Shown here one piece after another: positions 16,451 to 24,647 of a stretch of DNA of 64,000 nt; within the stretch, counting starts at the first letter, position 1; the number at the start of each line of letters is the position of its first letter. The notes beneath the pieces are model-generated. The model saw nothing but the letters and a program-made list of their open reading frames with translations. It ran no database searches and was not told where the DNA came from. The DNA is from Candidatus Uhrbacteria bacterium RIFCSPLOWO2_01_FULL_47_17 (lineage in GTDB: Bacteria > Patescibacteriota > Patescibacteriia > UBA9934 > GWF2-40-263). The DNA lies in the NCBI GenBank assembly GCA_001791305.1, contig MGEI01000005.1, positions 146,698 to 210,697 on the forward strand, written 5' to 3'. The position numbers were made by a program, and so were the translations under genes.

Positions 16451-16562
16451 GTCCTGGCGCCGACCTACTCTCGCCCAATCGGACTACCATCGGCCCTACG
16501 ACGCTTAACTTCTGTGTTCGGGATGGAAACAGGTGTGACCATCGTGGAAGAGGCACCAAGAC
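16451..16562 (-). rRNA. rrf: 5S rRNA
   Basis: rc aligns to E. coli 5S (CCGAACACAGAAGTTAAGCGTCGTAGGGCCGATGGTAGT...GAGAGTAGG); helix I pairing cttggtgcc/ggcgccagg. Confidence 0.85.
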
Positions 16563-16868
16563 AATGTAAACTTGCTGTTCTCACGAACAACAATTGAAGA
16601 TCAACAGAACTTATTCTAAACCTAATTTTTTCTGGTACGTGCGTACTCTGTGAACTCTCTTATGCAAGAGAGGTTGTAGAGCTCGACCTATTAGTACTGC
16701 TCGGCTGAACATCTTACGATGCTTACACCTACAGCCTATCAACCTGCTAGTCTCGCAGGGGTCTCAAATGAAGACTTATCTTTGGATCGGCTTCACGCTT
16801 AGATGCTTTCAGCGTTTATCCGAACCGAACGTAGCTACCCAGCGATGCCCTTGGCAGGACAACTGGTG

Positions 16869-16908
<40 letters not shown>

Positions 16909-16944
16909 TGGATTCCATCAATCTTCGACGCCCATGGTAGATAG

Positions 16945-16996
<52 letters not shown>

Positions 16997-17027
16997 TGGC
17001 GAACAGCCAAACCCTTGGGACCTTCTA

Positions 17028-17063
<36 letters not shown>

Positions 17064-17604
17064 GAACCACGCCGTCGCTGTGGACGCTTGGGCGTGACTA
17101 GCCTGTTATCCCCGGAGTAGCTTTTATCCGATGAGCTTCCGCCGTCCTATTTCGTACGGTCGGATCACTAACTTCTGCTTTCGCAACTGCGCGACTTGTA
17201 AGTCTTGCAGTAAAGCTGGCTTCTGCGTTTGCACGTCCAGCGCGATTTCCATCCGCGCCAAGCCAACCTTTGTAAACGCCTCCGTTACATTTTGGGAGGC
17301 ACCCGCCCCAGGTAAACTACCCACCAGATCCTGTCCCTCCCTCCGGTTTCACGGAAGGTGGTTAGACTTTACACAACGCAAGGGTGGTATCTCACTGGTG
17401 CCCGAAGGCTCCCACCTATTCTGAACATGCGGAACATAAAATCAAGACCAAGTTGTAGTAAAGCTTCACGGGGTCTTTTCGTCTTACCACGGGAAGTGAG
17501 CATCTTCACTCACATTGCAATTTCGCCGAGTACATTGTTGAGAGAGTCTCCAAGTCGTTATGCCATTCGTGCAGGACGGAACTTACCCGTCAAGGAATTT
17601 CGCT

Positions 17605-18330
17605 CTTTGTTGTTACGATCCATTGATCGACGTAGTCATTTCTGCCACGTTCTGCATGTCACCATGCAGGTCGGACTCTATCTTCTTCGAAGGTTTCGAA
17701 GTCTGGCGTATAGTCTCTGAGGATTCCAGAAATTTTGATGGAACTTTTCGATTCATCAATTGGATAATCTTTGCAATTTCTTTCTGACCTTGATGATTCT
17801 TGTGCGTTCCTTCCTTCATCATTTGAAGGAGCTGAGCAAAGAGTTCAAAATCATTTTTCTTTGAAGTTTGCAAAGAGTATTTTTGGAAGAACGGAATAAT
17901 CTTCTCTCGAAGATCTTCTTGCGATCTTACACAATACTTTAGCAATGGTTCTCTGTGATTATCATGACGAGTGTTCTGATAAATCTGACCGCATCCGAAA
18001 TACTCACGAATGAGTTCCAGACTTGATCGACTTTTCATACCTTGTGTCACAACAAACTCAGGAAACACCTGCCATCCAAGGCTTGTGGTTTTGTTTCGAA
18101 TCAAACTGACTGAGAAGCAACCCTCTCCGTCAACAAATCCGCAAATCCACCACGCCATTTCTAGTCTTTCCTGCTGATTGTCTCGTTTTTTTATCATACT
18201 ATGGTTATATTTTACCATAGAGTGAACGAGGTGTTCCAGCATATAGCCAAATTTTTCTTTATCTACGTCTGTGAGGCATCACAGTTCGATAATGAGAGGT
18301 CATTCACCTCACTAAGGCAGCTTTTATTTC
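17605..18330 (-). mobile_element. 23S rRNA intron (likely group I) in domain IV, inserted within the conserved CCUAAGGU^AGCGAAAUUCC sequence, carrying a LAGLIDADG homing-endonuclease ORF
   Basis: 23S similarity breaks after ...caaggaatttcgct (17604) and resumes at accttaggacgattatagtt (18331); about 726 nt in between. Confidence 0.7.
17613..18242 (-). CDS. LAGLIDADG homing endonuclease (intron-encoded)
   Basis: WICGFVDGEGCFSVS motif (LAGLIDADG variant), 209 aa, entirely inside the 23S intron. Confidence 0.75.
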   Translation of the reverse strand: MLEHLVHSMVKYNHSMIKKRDNQQERLEMAWWICGFVDGEGCFSVSLIRNKTTSLGWQVFPEFVVTQGMKSRSSLELIREYFGCGQIYQNTRHDNHREPLLKYCVRSQEDLREKIIPFFQKYSLQTSKKNDFELFAQLLQMMKEGTHKNHQGQKEIAKIIQLMNRKVPSKFLESSETIRQTSKPSKKIESDLHGDMQNVAEMTTSINGS

Positions 18331-19182
18331 ACCTTAGGACGATTATAGTTATCGCCGGCGTTCATCCGCGCTTCAGTCGAAAGCTTTGACCCCGAAGGAT
18401 CTAACCCCCTTCCTTAACGTTCGGACACTGGCCAGGCATCAGCCCCTATACTTCACTTTGCAGTTTTGCAGGGACCTGTGTTTTTGGTAAACAGTCGCTT
18501 GGAGTCTTTCGCTGCGGGTCGCCCCCTCACAGGGGCAACCAGGCCTTATCCCGAAGTTACGGCCGTTGTTTTGCCGAGTTCCTAAACAATGTTTCTCTCG
18601 TACGCCTTAGTGCATTACGCACCCACTCACCTGTGTCGGTTTACGGTACGGGTCTCTATCACATTAGCCTTAGCGGCTTTTCTTGGCTCCGTGTTCTTTC
18701 CCCTTGTTTCCTGTTGCCAGAAAACTTGCGATCATATTCGTGCTCTGGATTAAACCAAGCGTGGTGGATTTGCCTGCCACGCGCCTAAATACGCCCAACG
18801 TCATAGCCATAGGACGCGGGAAATTTCACGAAGCGTCCCCGCTTCAGTGTGATAAAAAGTGCAGGAATATTAACCTGCTATGCATCGACTACGCCTTTCA
18901 GCCTCGCCTTAGCACCCGACTAACCCTGGGACGATTTGCGTTGCCCAGGAACCCTTAAGTTTACGGCGGACGGGGTTCTCACCCGTCTTTTTGCTACTCA
19001 TGCCAACATTCTCCCTTCGCATCGCTCCACCATGGGTCACCCCTTTGGCTTCAGCGCAATACGAATGCTCTCCTACCGCTTAACATTTAAAAATGTTAAA
19101 CCCTCAGCTTCGGCACATCATTTAGCCCCGGTACATTTTCGGCGCAGAAAAACTTGACCAGTGAGCTATTACGCTATCTTTA

Positions 19183-19213
<31 letters not shown>

Positions 19214-19792
19214 TTGTTTAAGTCTTTCCACCACCTTTTACACTTAATGATGATTTTGGGGCCTTAGCTTGAGATCTGGGCTGTTTCCCTTTCGACGTAT
19301 GGAGCTTAGCCCCCATCGTCTGACTGCCGGGAACACATGTTGGTATTCGGAGTTTGATTAGAGTCGCTACCCGAAGGCGCAAACTCGATTCAGTGCTCTA
19401 CCCCCAACACATTATTTACCGACGCTAGCCCAAAAGCTATCTCGGAGAGAACCAGCTATTACCGAGTTCGATTGGAATTTCTCCGCTATCCACAACTCAT
19501 CCCCGTGTTTTGCACGGCACGTGGGTTCGGCCCTCCACGAACTGTTACATTCGCTTCAGCCTGGTCATGGATAGGTCACCCGGTTTCGGGTTATGTGCGC
19601 GCCACCAATATTTCGCGGATTAACGCTCGCTTTCACTATGGCTTCGTCCCGGAGGACTTAACCAAGCGACGCACAACACACTCGTTGGCTCATTCTTCAA
19701 TAGGAACGCCATGACCCACTCTCCGCCTTGCGGCTTCGAGGGGCGCTGACTCCTTGTAAGTATACGATTTCAGATACTATTTCATTCCCCTT

Positions 19793-19826
<34 letters not shown>

Positions 19827-21094
19827 GTACACTATCGATCAGAACATGTATTTAGCTTTGCCAGATAGTCCCGGCAGATTCCTACAGGATTTCACGAGTC
19901 CCGTAGTACTCAAGAACAGTAATCATAATGACGTAATATATTTCGCGTACAGGACTTTCACCTTCTATGGTGTGACGTTCCAGTCACTTCCCCTATATAT
20001 TACATGGATTTCATTATCCGTTTTTTGAAGAAAACGACACTACCGTCTTACAACACCTATCTCTCGCAACGACTTCAATCTTTCGCATCCATTCACACAC
20101 AGTCTTGCGACTCCATGCTTACAAACACTTCACGAGAGAGGTTTGAGCTGTTCCCTTTTCGCTCGCCACTACTAAGGGAATCTATTCGTTTCGCGTTTCC
20201 ATACGACGTGCTGTCGGGTAAACCCGACTGGCCGCATGAAAACGTTAAACGAAATTGTTTTTTCTTTTCCTCTGGCTACTGAGATGTTTCACTTCACCAG
20301 GTGCCCTCCTTGCAACTATGTATTGATTGCAAAGTAATGCGGTATGAACCGCATTGGGTTGCCCCATTCGGATATCTTCGGATCAAAGGTTGTTTGCCAC
20401 CTCCCCGAAGCTTTTCGCAGGCTACTACGTCCTTCGTCGGCATGTTCTGTCAAGCCATCCTTCGTATACTCTTATTAATATGCTCTACAACCACTCTTAT
20501 TTAAGAGTGGTTCACTTCTTTGTGGTTTCTCTAATTCTGTTGATCTTCAATTGTAATGTTCGTGCGACCCTTGAAGGGTTTACCGAAATCTGTTTGATTC
20601 AAGGATCTGTTCTGGCCTTGAGGCCAGAGCTGAGCTACGACGCGAGAGTCGGAACTCAGCTCTAGGCACAAGAGACAAAGTGATGGAGTGGTTGAGTGGT
20701 GGAGTGAAGGTACTTGGCTTTTTGTTGAGAAGACACTATAAAACCGCCTTGTGGGCGGTCTTCAAGCAACAAAATTGTTACGATGAAGATCGTCCCTTAT
20801 ATTTGGTTTGCGTTACATGTGAACATATCCCCTTGTTCTCCGTAAGCTCCTTCTCCTCTCCATCCCATCAGCGGACCCATCTTCATGTGGGTCGATCAGC
20901 CAGATTATTCTTGGGACAAAGAAGAAGAAACGTATTCGATTTAAGTGGTGGAAGTTTAACGGAAGCCGAAAAGACTGTCAAGGGAATTTGTCCCAATTGT
21001 TTCCACAGGCATGTTTAACGATTTTATCTTGACAAAACCCCCATTTTCCGCTATGATTGTCTGATCCAAACGTTGGATCAACCAAGGAGGAGAG

Positions 21095-22501
21095 ATGCGT
21101 TCTTTCATCATAATCGCGATCGTTTTCATGTCCGCCTGTGAAAACAAGGTCGAAGGCCCAAAAGGCGATCAAGGAATCCAAGGTGTCGCTGGAGAGAAGG
21201 GCGACAAGGGTGAGCCTGGAGAAAAAGGCGAGGAAGGATCGAAGGGCGATCAGGGTGCAACCGGTTTGCAAGGCGAAAAAGGTTTGCAAGGCATCGCCGG
21301 TGAAAAAGGCGAAACCGGTTCGATCGGTTTGGCCGGAGTTCAAGGCGCGAAGGGAGATCCAGGATCGATCGGTCTTCCAGGTTCAGACGGAACATCTTGC
21401 GTCGGTCAGTCTGTAACCGAGGGCGTGCTCGTCACATGTGGCAAGGAAACATTCCTCGTGAAGCACGGCGATGTTGGACCGGCGGGAGCGAAGGGTGACA
21501 AAGGTGATGCTGGTTCGCAAGGCTTGAAAGGCGACCAAGGATTGCAAGGGATCCAAGGTGTCGCTGGAAAAGATGGCGTGCCTGGTCTCGATGGATTGCC
21601 TGGAGCAAAGGGCGATGTTGGACCGGCGGGAGCGAAGGGTGACAAAGGTGATGCTGGTTCGCAAGGCTTGAAAGGCGACCAAGGATTGCAAGGGATTCAA
21701 GGTGTCACCGGAAAAAATGGCACACCCGGTCTTGATGGATTGCCTGGAGCAAAGGGCGATGTTGGTTCTCAAGGGCTACAAGGAATTCAGGGAGACAAAG
21801 GAGATGCAGGATCCAAAGGTTCACCCGGATGGGATGGGATACCAGGATTAAAAGGAGACAAAGGGAATCAGGGTGAACAGGGTTTACAAGGAATCCAAGG
21901 ACCACAAGGTGTTCAAGGAAAACCAGGAGAACTTGGAAAAAACCTTGTGGCACAGTGCCCTGAAGGATCTAAAGCAATGGTGTTTAAAGGACACCTTAAG
22001 TACTGTGCTCATAAGTTTGTCTTTGAAAAAGGACTGACTTGGGAACAATGTCTGAACACGTGTCTGACGAACGGCTTATTGATTCCCCCACTTCACGAAT
22101 TTGCAATTATTTGCCTTGGAGATCCGACATTCTTCGATCAGGAAAAAGTTAATGGATGCCCGGACTTCCCCAACTGCTCAACCATTACTGGATGCCCGTC
22201 AGACTACAGTTGCTCAGACAAGCTCTGGTTCCACGTTGCCGAAAATCAGGCTGGTGGAGATACGACTCTTCGTCCAACACTAGCCTTCGAGCCATACTCC
22301 CCAGAAATGGGTAAGTATTTTTGCGAGGCCGTTCTGGAACAGAGTAAGGGAGTTGTGTATGCACAACCTAAATCTGGTCAAAAACGCATCTTCCTTAATT
22401 GGTACAGCTACCTTCGAACAGTGACGGTGCAAGACGACTTTGTTCCCACCGTGGACGCAACATTGCTTCCACGCGGCTGTCTTTGTGGAAAACAAATATG
22501 A
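21095..22501 (+). CDS. collagen-like triple-helix-repeat lipoprotein with Cys-rich C-terminal domain
   Basis: lipoprotein-type signal (IIIAIVFMSAC); about 260 aa of uninterrupted G-X-Y; internal 144-bp (48-aa) direct repeat x2 (21470-21613 / 21614-21757); about 190-aa Cys-rich C-terminus. Confidence 0.75.
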   Translation: MRSFIIIAIVFMSACENKVEGPKGDQGIQGVAGEKGDKGEPGEKGEEGSKGDQGATGLQGEKGLQGIAGEKGETGSIGLAGVQGAKGDPGSIGLPGSDGTSCVGQSVTEGVLVTCGKETFLVKHGDVGPAGAKGDKGDAGSQGLKGDQGLQGIQGVAGKDGVPGLDGLPGAKGDVGPAGAKGDKGDAGSQGLKGDQGLQGIQGVTGKNGTPGLDGLPGAKGDVGSQGLQGIQGDKGDAGSKGSPGWDGIPGLKGDKGNQGEQGLQGIQGPQGVQGKPGELGKNLVAQCPEGSKAMVFKGHLKYCAHKFVFEKGLTWEQCLNTCLTNGLLIPPLHEFAIICLGDPTFFDQEKVNGCPDFPNCSTITGCPSDYSCSDKLWFHVAENQAGGDTTLRPTLAFEPYSPEMGKYFCEAVLEQSKGVVYAQPKSGQKRIFLNWYSYLRTVTVQDDFVPTVDATLLPRGCLCGKQI

Positions 22502-23489: not shown

Positions 23490-23780
23490 TTACATCCTTT
23501 TAAATTTCGCTTGATTGATCTTTTCAAGCGTTGACAATGTCAAAATCACAGACGGATTCTGACTCACTTTCAAAAACAATCTGTCTCCAAACTTTTGTTG
23601 GAGGGGTGTTAAGAATTCATCGCCCCATGAGGGTGAGAAAACGCTCACACCTTCAAAATCAACAATAACTTCTTCATCAACCCCAACAGAATTCAGTGTC
23701 GGAAGAAACGCAGCGTATGATTCTTTGCCATTTTGACGCGAAGTGAAAACGGAACCGAATTTATTTAGATGTATAATCAT
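23490..23780 (-). CDS. STAS-like small protein (DUF4325-type; possible partner/antagonist of the adjacent GHKL ATPase)
   Basis: 96 aa; pattern EEVIVDFEGVSVFSPSWGDEFLTPL typical of DUF4325/STAS-like proteins; 10-nt gap to the upstream gene. Confidence 0.5.
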   Translation of the reverse strand: MIIHLNKFGSVFTSRQNGKESYAAFLPTLNSVGVDEEVIVDFEGVSVFSPSWGDEFLTPLQQKFGDRLFLKVSQNPSVILTLSTLEKINQAKFKRM

Positions 23781-23789
23781 ATATTTTGT

Positions 23790-24524
23790 TTAAAACTCGA
23801 TCACAGACAAACATCCGTGTATGGGATCGGGGGTTTTTTCTGTTTTAAATTTCAGAATGCCTTTTTGAATCCTGAGCGTGGCCGTGCCTGATTGAAAATT
23901 GAGCGTTGCATCGGCGAGGTTTAATGCGTCTTTTGTATATTTTAATCCGTTGCCGCGATGTTCATTTTCTCTGCTTGTGAGAATTTCCGTGAAAGCGACG
24001 TGCAACGCTTCTTGATCGGACACCAAATTCGGTCGAACGCGCTGAAGCGTTTTTAATACGCCTTGCCCTCGATCTGCGAGGATGATGATGCGTTTACCCA
24101 AATCATAAGCAAAAAATATTCCCGGAACATCCGGCCAGTTTCCGATGTTGTGATCATAGGAGTTGCTTCCGATTTCTCCTGCGGCCGAAGAAATAAGAGA
24201 CGCTGTTTTTATAAACAATGGATTTGCATCCATTTCATGAACCATACGTTCAAAACGCGTCTTAAAGACGTCGCTAGTTTGACAATAAAAATCAGATTCC
24301 GGAACAAACGGCGTTTCTGCATGAACCCATTCTTGAGCCAGTCGTAAAATTCCTTTTGTTTTTTTGTTGAGATCCGCCAATGAATAATAACGATGCCCTC
24401 CCGGCGTCACATAGGAAGCTGAAAATGTGCCATCATTATGCCAACGACGCAAAGTCATCTGTGAAACACCCAAATATCTGGCGGCTTCACTGATTGTGAG
24501 ATAGTTTTTTGAAAAGCTAATCAT
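23790..24524 (-). CDS. HTH (MerR/excisionase-type) DNA-binding domain fused to a GHKL/HATPase_c-like ATPase (anti-sigma-factor-kinase-like)
   Basis: N-terminus LTISEAARYLGVSQMTLRRWHNDG (HTH_17-like); C-terminal half with DRGQGV (G1-like) and HRGNGLKY (G2-like) boxes. Confidence 0.55.
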   Translation of the reverse strand: MISFSKNYLTISEAARYLGVSQMTLRRWHNDGTFSASYVTPGGHRYYSLADLNKKTKGILRLAQEWVHAETPFVPESDFYCQTSDVFKTRFERMVHEMDANPLFIKTASLISSAAGEIGSNSYDHNIGNWPDVPGIFFAYDLGKRIIILADRGQGVLKTLQRVRPNLVSDQEALHVAFTEILTSRENEHRGNGLKYTKDALNLADATLNFQSGTATLRIQKGILKFKTEKTPDPIHGCLSVIEF

Positions 24525-24647
24525 ATTGACATAAATTATACAAAACTATACAAATTTGTCAAATCTATACATTTCAAGTCATTACGCTATGCGCCTTATT
24601 TTTCCCATGCTAAGATTATTTTACGCTCCTTACAATTGAGGTGATTC

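What the first reader, a model, noticed from the sequence alone, without database searches (positions are those of the whole stretch)
23490..24524. Two-gene module: HTH-fused GHKL/HATPase protein plus STAS-like (DUF4325-type) partner
A 244-aa protein joins an MerR/excisionase-type HTH to a C-terminal region with G1/G2-like ATP-lid boxes (DRGQGV, HRGNGLKY). It is co-transcribed (10-nt gap) with a 96-aa protein showing the EEVIVDF..SPSWGDEFL pattern of STAS-like DUF4325 proteins. The pairing resembles anti-sigma-kinase/antagonist partner-switching, but here the kinase-like protein would itself bind DNA. Its position inside an apparent island suggests a self-contained regulatory or conflict module rather than housekeeping signalling.
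Basis: partly seen in the sequence, partly recalled or inferred. Interest (0 to 1): 0.7.

Follow-up and report, generated by a model that had tools for sequence, protein, structure and literature searches.

The report
Self-regulating DNA-binding kinase with STAS partner
This is a real two-gene switch, found across the tiny-celled Patescibacteria (CPR), in which a protein kinase of the anti-sigma-factor type is fused to a DNA-binding domain that reads repeated boxes in its own promoter and is paired with a small STAS partner carrying an invariant serine; it is a new variant of the recently described CapK/CapS kinase-substrate regulators, not part of a defence island.

Summary

The window comes from a Candidatus Uhrbacteria genome. 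At least 573 species-level genomes across the CPR encode A, and B follows A in 78 of 78 testable loci. No other neighbour is conserved.

New here: the promoter of A carries 2-4 phased direct repeats of TGTATAGATTT over its -35, spacer and -10. The core is about 260-fold enriched there. Recognition-helix residue 23 covaries with box base 3 (Asp with C 18/18; Asn with G; other residues with T). Arg45 covaries with base 7. Both residues align with DNA-contacting residues of BldC. Variants lacking this HTH lack the boxes.

B Ser51 is invariant and aligns with the proven CapS phosphosite Ser54. The closest known system is CapK/CapS (EMBO J 2026), but the architecture differs.

Most likely this is an autorepressed partner-switching kinase module. 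Signal and output are unknown. The "island/conflict" reading is not supported.

The parts
23790..24524 (-). Gene A: 244-aa BldC/MerR-type wHTH fused to a SpoIIAB/RsbW/CapK-like GHKL serine-kinase domain
24366..24503 (-). Winged HTH of A (residues 8-53): recognition helix with M23 and the invariant T24-L-R-R27-W28; wing G42-G-H44-R45-Y-Y
24225..24350 (-). Linker and N-terminal helices of the kinase module (residues 59-100) with invariant W66, Y80 and R90; kept in HTH-less relatives
   Evidence: Alignment A1; sequences of the short class
23793..24275 (-). GHKL (Bergerat-fold) kinase-like domain of A, residues about 84-244
24147..24176 (-). N box: E117-I-G-S-N121-S-Y-D124-H125-N126
   Evidence: Invariant in 40/40 homologs; N121 aligns with CapK N218, whose mutation abolishes CapS phosphorylation (PMC13373217)
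24060..24074 (-). G1 box: D151-R-G-Q-G155
   Evidence: Invariant D, R, G, G; aligns with CapK D-S-G-L-G
23940..23957 (-). G2 box after the ATP lid: R190-G-N-G-L-K195
   Evidence: Invariant; aligns with CapK A-R-G-L-G-L-K; residues 185-190 have low pLDDT, as expected of a flexible lid
23490..23780 (-). Gene B: 96-aa single-domain STAS protein (DUF4325)
23628..23630 (-). Codon of B Ser51, the predicted phospho-acceptor in the invariant P50-S51-W52-x-x-E55 motif at the start of helix 50-67
   Evidence: Invariant 70/70; hhalign places S51 on CapS S54, the experimentally shown phosphosite (PMC13373217); by-eye ungapped alignment to SpoIIAA S58 (own knowledge)
24535..24562 (-). Promoter of the A-B operon: TTGACA (24562-24557), 16 nt, TATAAT (24540-24535); only about 10 nt from the -10 to the ATG (near-leaderless)
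   Evidence: 12/12 consensus match; sequence
24561..24571 (-). Operator box 1, TGTATAGATTT, overlapping the -35 hexamer
   Evidence: Exact match; family-wide enrichment and phasing
24542..24552 (-). Operator box 2, TGTATAGTTTT, in the promoter spacer, 19 nt from box 1
   Evidence: Exact match; spacing peaks at 10, 19-21 and 29-31 nt
24533..24542 (-). Box-like element 3, TGTATAATTT, 10 nt from box 2, containing the -10 hexamer
   Evidence: Sequence; the same arrangement in close relatives

Best explanation
A and B form an autoregulated kinase/STAS partner-switching module that is conserved across Patescibacteria. (1) A binds through its BldC-type winged HTH, probably as head-to-tail multimers, to 2-4 helically phased direct repeats (consensus wwTG[T/C]ATAGaTTTg) that cover the -35, spacer and -10 of its own perfect-consensus promoter, and so represses the A-B operon. 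This step is well supported. (2) The C-terminal domain of A is an ATP-binding GHKL domain of the SpoIIAB/RsbW/CapK type with all catalytic boxes intact. The fold and motifs are shown; activity is inferred. (3) B is a single-domain STAS protein that docks on the kinase domain and is phosphorylated on invariant Ser51. This is inferred from alignment with CapS Ser54 and SpoIIAA Ser58. (4) By analogy with SpoIIAB/SpoIIAA and CapK/CapS, binding of unphosphorylated B changes the oligomeric state or DNA affinity of A, and ATP-dependent phosphorylation releases B, so operon expression and any further output follow the kinase's input. This step is inferred, and its direction is unknown. The input signal (ATP/ADP ratio, or a ligand) and any output beyond self-regulation are not known.
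Against: There are no biochemical data. No sequence HMM recognises the kinase domain, and the links to CapK and CapS are weak (hhalign probabilities 23% and 12%). No phosphatase gene sits next to the pair. No target other than the module's own promoter was found, so a pure self-loop has no visible output. In a fused GHKL-DUF4325 relative the Ser51-equivalent is Ala, so DUF4325 domains are not always substrates. Ten of 73 promoters lack the strict core; several of these carry variants, but L042, L045 and L048 have no evident box. The covariation statistics are not corrected for phylogeny.
Confidence: 0.55

Rival explanations
1. A is primarily an anti-sigma factor, as SpoIIAB and RsbW are. Its GHKL domain sequesters a sigma factor encoded elsewhere, B is the anti-anti-sigma, and the HTH serves only to autoregulate the operon.
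For: The best structural matches are true anti-sigma kinases and their antagonists. This would give the module an output without extra DNA targets.
Against: No sigma-factor gene is linked to the pair across 80 loci; canonical systems usually keep one in the operon (own knowledge). Sigma-binding residues were not examined.
Confidence: 0.15
2. B is not a substrate but a regulatory or ligand-sensing subunit, playing in trans the role of CapK's internal STAS domain. The GHKL domain acts as an ATPase/clamp, or phosphorylates another protein.
For: CapK carries a cis STAS domain that forms the ssDNA-sensing groove with the GHKL domain (PMC13373217), and A lacks it. In the fused GHKL-DUF4325 protein the Ser51-equivalent is Ala.
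Against: Ser51 and its flanking P and W are invariant in 70/70 B proteins and align with the proven phosphosite of CapS.
Confidence: 0.13
3. The pair is a toxin-antitoxin-like or abortive-infection module: the kinase is toxic, B is a pseudo-substrate antitoxin, and autorepression resembles that of type II TA operons.
For: It is a compact autoregulated two-gene operon. The related VapKSC is an anti-phage TA system (PMC13373217). Some neighbourhoods carry Fic, recombinase, DGR or R-M genes. The local GC dip to 0.39.
Against: No toxin or effector domain is present. There are no PADLOC hits beyond the HTH. Conservation is phylum-wide at 44-87% identity and usually one copy per locus, unlike patchy, mobile TA systems. 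Only 1 of 2.9 million viral contigs has a hit, and there A is the host flank of a prophage.
Confidence: 0.08
4. [quoted passage not shown]
For: Weak but specific profile similarity of both proteins to CapK and CapS. One relative lies directly downstream of a type I R-M system, as about 20% of capKS loci do.
Against: A lacks the internal STAS sensor domain and B lacks the wHTH. No downstream operon is conserved. The HTH types differ.
Confidence: 0.05

Closest known systems
CapK + CapS (Chambers et al., EMBO J 2026, PMC13373217)
   Same: Two adjacent genes, kinase first. The kinase is a GHKL domain of the anti-sigma type with an N-terminal HTH, and the partner has a STAS domain with an absolutely conserved Ser at the start of helix 2. 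The operon is autoregulated through operator sites in its own promoter. Profile similarity: A vs CapK E 8.6e-4, B vs CapS E 2.6e-3.
   Different: CapK is HTH-STAS-GHKL (368 aa) and senses ssDNA in the STAS/GHKL groove; A has no internal STAS domain (244 aa). CapS carries the functional wHTH and binds palindromes as a dimer; B has no DNA-binding domain. In this family the kinase's HTH appears to read direct repeats, whereas deleting the CapK HTH had no effect. CapKS sits upstream of immune operons in gamma-proteobacteria and other bacteria; this pair has no conserved neighbour and is found in the CPR.
VapKSC (same paper)
   Same: GHKL kinase plus a small STAS partner. VapS is the only weak PDB sequence hit of the B profile (9z7o, E 0.67, over the Ser motif). 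PIN.4 VapC genes were earlier noted as 'coupled to DUF4325 genes' (PMC5499597).
   Different: VapK has a STAS domain and no HTH. VapS has a C-terminal antitoxin tail. A VapC PIN toxin is the third gene. None of these is present here.
SpoIIAB/SpoIIAA and RsbW/RsbV partner-switching pairs
   Same: They are the best structural matches for both proteins. They have the same N/G1/G2 box layout and a Ser at the N-terminus of STAS helix 2.
   Different: The classical kinases have no DNA-binding domain, act by sequestering a sigma factor encoded in the same operon, and are reset by PP2C phosphatases. No sigma-factor or phosphatase gene is linked here.
BldC family of MerR-like wHTH regulators (PMC5859096)
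   Different: BldC is a 68-residue stand-alone domain with no effector domain. A scores below the HTH_BldC cutoff (24.6 vs 77 bits) and carries a kinase domain.

Membership tests
GHKL / Bergerat-fold ATPase-kinase superfamily | Bergerat alpha/beta sandwich fold | tested here: met
GHKL / Bergerat-fold ATPase-kinase superfamily | N box (E-x3-N), G1 box (D-x-G-x-G) and G2 box (G-x-G) conserved | tested here: met
   E117/N121, D151/G153/G155 and G191/G193 are invariant in 40/40 sequences
GHKL / Bergerat-fold ATPase-kinase superfamily | Match to Pfam HATPase_c or HATPase_c_2 at the gathering score | tested here: not met
   No HATPase family at E<=1; none is precomputed for any of 120 homologs
Anti-sigma-factor serine kinases (SpoIIAB/RsbW type) | Phosphorylates a STAS antagonist on the conserved Ser | not testable with these tools
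   Only inferred from the invariance and alignment of Ser51
Anti-sigma-factor serine kinases (SpoIIAB/RsbW type) | Binds and inhibits a cognate sigma factor, usually encoded in the same operon | tested here: not met
   No sigma-factor gene is conserved next to the pair in 80 loci; binding itself cannot be tested here
CapK | HTH-STAS-GHKL three-domain architecture | tested here: not met
   Only two short helices lie between the HTH and the GHKL domain, with no STAS domain; A is 244 aa vs 368 aa for CapK
CapK | Immediately followed by a STAS-protein gene | tested here: met
   78/78 testable loci
CapK | Located upstream of an immune or stress operon | tested here: not met
   No conserved downstream gene; in the window the downstream genes are orphans
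CapS | [quoted passage not shown] | tested here: not met
   B is 96 aa, a single STAS domain
CapS | Absolutely conserved Ser at the start of the second STAS helix | tested here: met
   Ser51 invariant 70/70 and aligned to CapS Ser54
DUF4325 (PF14213, STAS-like) | Pfam match above the gathering score and a STAS fold | tested here: met
BldC family | MerR-like wHTH without a coiled-coil dimerisation helix, binding direct repeats head-to-tail | tested here: inconclusive
   Fold and sequence similarity, same-strand phased repeats and covariation at the BldC contact positions all fit, but the NCBIfam score is below its cutoff and binding is untested
MerR family (classical) | Dimer on a palindrome inside a 19-20 bp promoter spacer | tested here: not met
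   The spacer is 16 nt, the repeats are direct rather than inverted, and no coiled-coil helix follows the wHTH
Known anti-phage defence systems (PADLOC) | Match to a defence-system protein model beyond a generic domain | tested here: not met
   Only the HTH matches mad1 (res 6-56), plus a weak PD-T4-6 hit at E 0.016 for B

The most novel reading that the evidence does not exclude
The A-B pair is a phylum-wide core regulatory switch of Patescibacteria: an ancestral, minimal form of the CapK/CapS and SpoIIAB/SpoIIAA logic in which the kinase itself is the transcription factor. It would sense cellular energy or host-association state and control a regulon through BldC-like filaments on TGTATAG-type direct repeats. 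It would give the first readable protein-DNA recognition code (residue 23 to base 3, Arg45 to base 7) for a regulator of these uncultivated, genome-reduced bacteria.
Probability: 0.25. Interest if true: 0.8.

Novelty: new variant of a known kind. Interest (0 to 1): 0.6.

Why it matters
Very little is known about gene regulation in Patescibacteria (CPR). They make up a large share of bacterial diversity, have small genomes, and most are uncultivated. This module is found in hundreds of species-level genomes across the phylum. Its kinase domain is not annotated in any database; all sources call the protein an HTH, excisionase or MerR protein. It comes with a cis-element and a residue-to-base covariation that can be tested directly by specificity-swap experiments in vitro, with no need to cultivate the host. 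It also extends the newly described CapK/CapS/VapKSC group of GHKL-kinase/STAS-substrate pairs. It shows that the same kinase-STAS core occurs with a BldC-type HTH, with an ArsR-type wHTH, or with no DNA-binding domain, and outside any defence context. It may also hint at a role for the HTH of CapK, whose deletion had no phenotype in that study.

Tried and rejected
(1) Sequence HMMs for the kinase domain (Pfam, NCBIfam, PADLOC) gave nothing, and PDB sequence searches hit only the HTH. The assignment had to come from structure.

(2) Defence-island or mobile-element reading: rejected on neighbourhood evidence. The single IMG/VR hit is the host flank of a prophage.

(3) Search for a regulon. Within the window the exact box occurs only at the A promoter. 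In 1.5 Mb of flanking DNA the only other phased pair is a duplicated promoter plus B (L039). No regulon could be defined.

(4) A B homolog labelled 'Nanoarchaeia' suggested cross-domain spread. The contig carries a Mur ligase, so it is bacterial. Record titles such as 'uncultured Gammaproteobacteria' or 'Bdellovibrionales' for several loci are probably automatic mislabels. I did not verify this.

(5) Classical MerR-type activation by spacer untwisting: rejected, because the spacer is 16 nt and the repeats are direct.

(6) A structure prediction of the A-B complex was not possible: both prediction jobs went to the single proteins, and the tool returns no interface metrics.

(7) CapS and VapS structures could not be compared by fold, because the fold libraries predate their release.

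Full report
OBSERVATION. The two ORFs are real and lie on the minus strand. A is 23790-24524 (244 aa) and B is 23490-23780 (96 aa), separated by 9 nt. A residues 8-53 match HTH_17 (E 4.6e-10), MerR_1, MerR and TIGR01764 'excise', and more weakly the BldC subfamily (E 1.7e-5, below its cutoff). No HATPase model of Pfam or NCBIfam matches the remaining 190 residues at E<=1. B matches DUF4325 ('STAS-like') above Pfam's gathering score. PADLOC matches only the generic HTH (mad1).

ORIGIN AND SPREAD. A is 100% identical to a hypothetical protein of Candidatus Uhrbacteria RIFCSPHIGHO2_02_FULL_47_44. The best 120 database hits are all full-length, about 244 aa, at 54-87% identity, and carry only HTH annotations. 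B has 493 relatives. By their record titles they span Uhr-, Peri-, Peregrini-, Gracili-, Sacchari-, Woese-, Ames-, Roizman-, Moran-, Magasanik-, Falkow-, Staskawicz- and Portnoybacteria and Paceibacterota. An exhaustive HMMER search with the kinase domain alone found only 280 representatives (50% clusters) at E<=1e-3 among 1.84 billion proteins, so the domain family is compact and isolated.

SYNTENY. In 80 fetched loci, B follows A directly in 78. The other two loci end at the contig edge. All-against-all clustering of 950 flanking ORFs found no other widely shared family: Fic-domain proteins in 12 loci, ABC transporters in 8, Xer-type recombinases in 6, DGR reverse transcriptases in 3. Annotated neighbourhoods range from sigma70/DnaG/MurJ/ThyX and Fpg/iPGM/FtsK/enolase to a type I R-M system. 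In the window itself the pair lies about 3 kb from the 23S/5S rRNA genes, between orphan genes, a collagen-repeat protein and two hydrolases. There is no integrase or defence gene. The only 'island' signal is a GC dip to 0.39. One IMG/VR contig has a relative, but there A abuts the serine-integrase end of a prophage and is host DNA. The module is therefore self-contained, but it is not a defence-island or mobile-element gene.

THE OPERATOR (new here). Upstream of A lies a perfect sigma70-type promoter, TTGACA-16 nt-TATAAT (24562-24535, minus strand), only about 10 nt from the ATG. Lining up the 110 nt upstream of A from 73 loci showed the same 11-nt box repeated 2-4 times on the coding strand in almost every lineage. 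The core TG[T/C]ATAG occurs 137 times in 10.95 kb of upstream sequence (12.5/kb) against 74 times in 1.54 Mb elsewhere on both strands (0.048/kb), about 260-fold enrichment. Fifty-two of 73 promoters have two or more copies. Spacings cluster at 10 (n=20), 19-21 (n=39) and 29-31 nt (n=9), that is, in helical phase. The consensus is wwTG[T/C]ATAG[a/t/g]TTTg. In the window, box 1 (24571-24561) overlaps the -35, box 2 (24552-24542) fills the spacer, and a box-like TGTATAATTT (24542-24533) contains the -10. These are the only exact boxes in 64 kb.

WHO BINDS IT. Of all 244 alignment columns of A, residue 23 separates loci with TGCATAG boxes from loci with TGTATAG boxes best, with no overlap between the two classes. 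It lies at the start of the recognition helix, just before the invariant T-L-R-R-W. In loci with at least two boxes, Asp23 goes with C at box position 3 in 18 of 18. The single Asn23 protein (L084) has three TGGGTAG boxes. Ala, Met, Gln, Thr or Val at residue 23 goes with T in 39 of 40 (Fisher 3e-14, not corrected for phylogeny). Arg45 in the wing goes with G at position 7 in 55 of 56, and the three proteins with Leu45 have TGTATAC boxes. On a neighbour-joining tree built from the kinase domain only, the residue-23 class changes about 8 times and 58 of 59 tips are concordant. The tree is noisy, so this count is an upper estimate, but the Asp class is not one clade. The HTH aligns with BldC so that residue 23 corresponds to Lys26, Arg27 to Arg30, and His44/Arg45 to His46/Arg47. 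In the BldC-DNA structures, Arg30 and Lys26 are the only major-groove base contacts. Arg30 makes a 5'-YpG-3' contact, the wing reads an AT-rich minor groove 4 bp away, and protomers bind direct repeats head-to-tail (PMC5859096). The box has the same layout: an invariant T1-G2, the covarying base 3 next to it, then the ATTT tract. A natural control agrees. Relatives of the kinase that lack this HTH (about 190 aa), or that carry an ArsR-like wHTH instead, still have a DUF4325 gene directly downstream but have no such boxes; one has a palindrome instead. I conclude with high confidence that A binds its own promoter. Because the boxes cover a promoter that already matches the consensus 12/12, repression is the likely effect. 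That last point is inference.

RELATION TO KNOWN SYSTEMS. The literature on DUF4325 is almost empty. The relevant work is Chambers et al., EMBO J 2026 (PMC13373217). CapK (HTH-STAS-GHKL) phosphorylates CapS (STAS-wHTH) on Ser54 when ssDNA binds the CapK STAS/GHKL groove, which releases CapS from operators and de-represses adjacent immune operons. In VapKSC, the STAS protein VapS is the antitoxin of a PIN toxin. Using CapK and CapS sequences taken from that paper's source data, profile comparison gives A vs CapK E 8.6e-4 over the N box to the C-terminal sheet, with N121 on the catalytic N218, DRGxG on DSGLG, and HRGNGLK on ARGLGLK. B vs CapS gives E 2.6e-3, with Ser51 on Ser54. The B profile's only PDB sequence hit of note is VapS (E 0.67) over the same motif. 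B is also related to the DUF4325 domain of a fused GHKL-DUF4325 protein encoded 2.5 kb from the pair in another genome (E 2.2e-4), where the Ser is replaced by Ala. Pro50-Ser51-Trp52 and Glu55 are invariant in 70 of 70 B proteins, whereas Ser49 is not. The architecture differs from CapK/CapS in three tested respects: A has no internal STAS domain, B has no wHTH, and no downstream operon is conserved. So this is not a member of the CapK/CapS family as defined, but it very probably works by a related kinase-substrate logic.

MECHANISM PROPOSED. Shown or strongly supported: the domain folds, the intact ATP-binding motifs, the obligate gene pairing, the promoter, the phased operator, and recognition of that operator by the HTH of A. 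Inferred: A phosphorylates B on Ser51; unphosphorylated B docked on the kinase domain alters A's multimerisation on the repeats; and the loop keeps A and B at a poised level, as argued for CapS. Unknown: the input signal, since A lacks CapK's ssDNA-sensing domain, and any output beyond self-regulation. Phased boxes were found nowhere else in the window, and only at duplicated promoter-plus-B copies in the flanks. Alternatives kept open are an anti-sigma role with an unlinked sigma factor, B as a sensor subunit rather than a substrate, and a TA-like kinase/pseudo-substrate pair.

VERDICT. The partner-switching-like interpretation is supported and made more precise. The island/conflict framing is not supported. 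I rate it a new variant of a known kind: the GHKL-kinase/STAS-substrate regulators of the CapK/CapS and SpoIIAB/SpoIIAA type. It is distinguished by a BldC-type HTH on the kinase, a direct-repeat self-operator with a readable recognition code, and phylum-wide conservation in the CPR. Interest 0.6.

Noticed in passing
window 16452-20485 (-): The 23S rRNA gene spans 3816 nt against a 2925-nt model because of an intron that carries a LAGLIDADG homing-endonuclease ORF (17613-18242). The 5S rRNA gene is at 16452-16560. No 16S gene lies next to them.
   Followed up: partly
window 21095-22501 (+): A 468-aa protein consisting largely of collagen triple-helix (G-x-y) repeats (Pfam Collagen E 8e-41), followed by a Cys-rich C-terminal domain.
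   Followed up: no
window 24524-24540 (-): The A-B transcript is probably leaderless or nearly so: the -10 hexamer ends about 10 nt before the ATG, and no Shine-Dalgarno sequence precedes A or B. Many homologous loci show the same arrangement.
   Followed up: partly
L039 11950-12400; L098 599-900: Copies of the box-bearing promoter followed directly by a B gene without A. In L039 this is a segmental duplication. They could be solo STAS paralogs under the same operator.
   Followed up: partly
L144 7069-10140: Two complete A-B modules in tandem (48% and 65% identical to the query), each with its own box array: TGTATAGGTT x3 plus one TGTATAGATT in the first, TGTATAGATTT and TGTATAGTTTT in the second. 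They may cross-talk, or be insulated by box position 8.
   Followed up: partly
L090 891-1765; L091 3445-4548: Relatives of the kinase with no HTH (about 190 aa), or with an ArsR-like wHTH (276 aa), still pair with a DUF4325 gene. This shows the DNA-binding domain is a swappable accessory of a kinase-STAS core.
   Followed up: partly
L002 11199-12242 (-): A separate 347-aa protein fusing HATPase_c_2/HATPase_c to DUF4325 lies 2.5 kb from the A-B pair in another Patescibacteria genome. The Ser51-equivalent is Ala there.
   Followed up: partly
L089 3425-8101: A prophage end (small and large terminase, then a large serine integrase) abuts the A gene, so a CPR phage may integrate next to this locus.
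   Followed up: partly
window 24327-24329 (-), residue W66 of A: An invariant Trp lies in the helix after the HTH and is also kept in the HTH-less class. CapK's ssDNA-stacking Trp68 sits at a similar distance after its HTH. No alignment supports equivalence, so this is only a lead.
   Followed up: no
L115 2101-2131; L158 1079-1109: Two high-GC (0.56-0.58) contigs that do not look like CPR share a conserved hairpin followed by a phased pair TGTATAGATT-N11-TGTATAGATT, with no A homolog. Unexplained.
   Followed up: no
80 loci L009-L088: Fic-domain proteins with a C-terminal wHTH lie within 5 kb of the pair in 12 of 80 loci, in varying positions and orientations. The association is weak and its meaning is unknown.
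   Followed up: no
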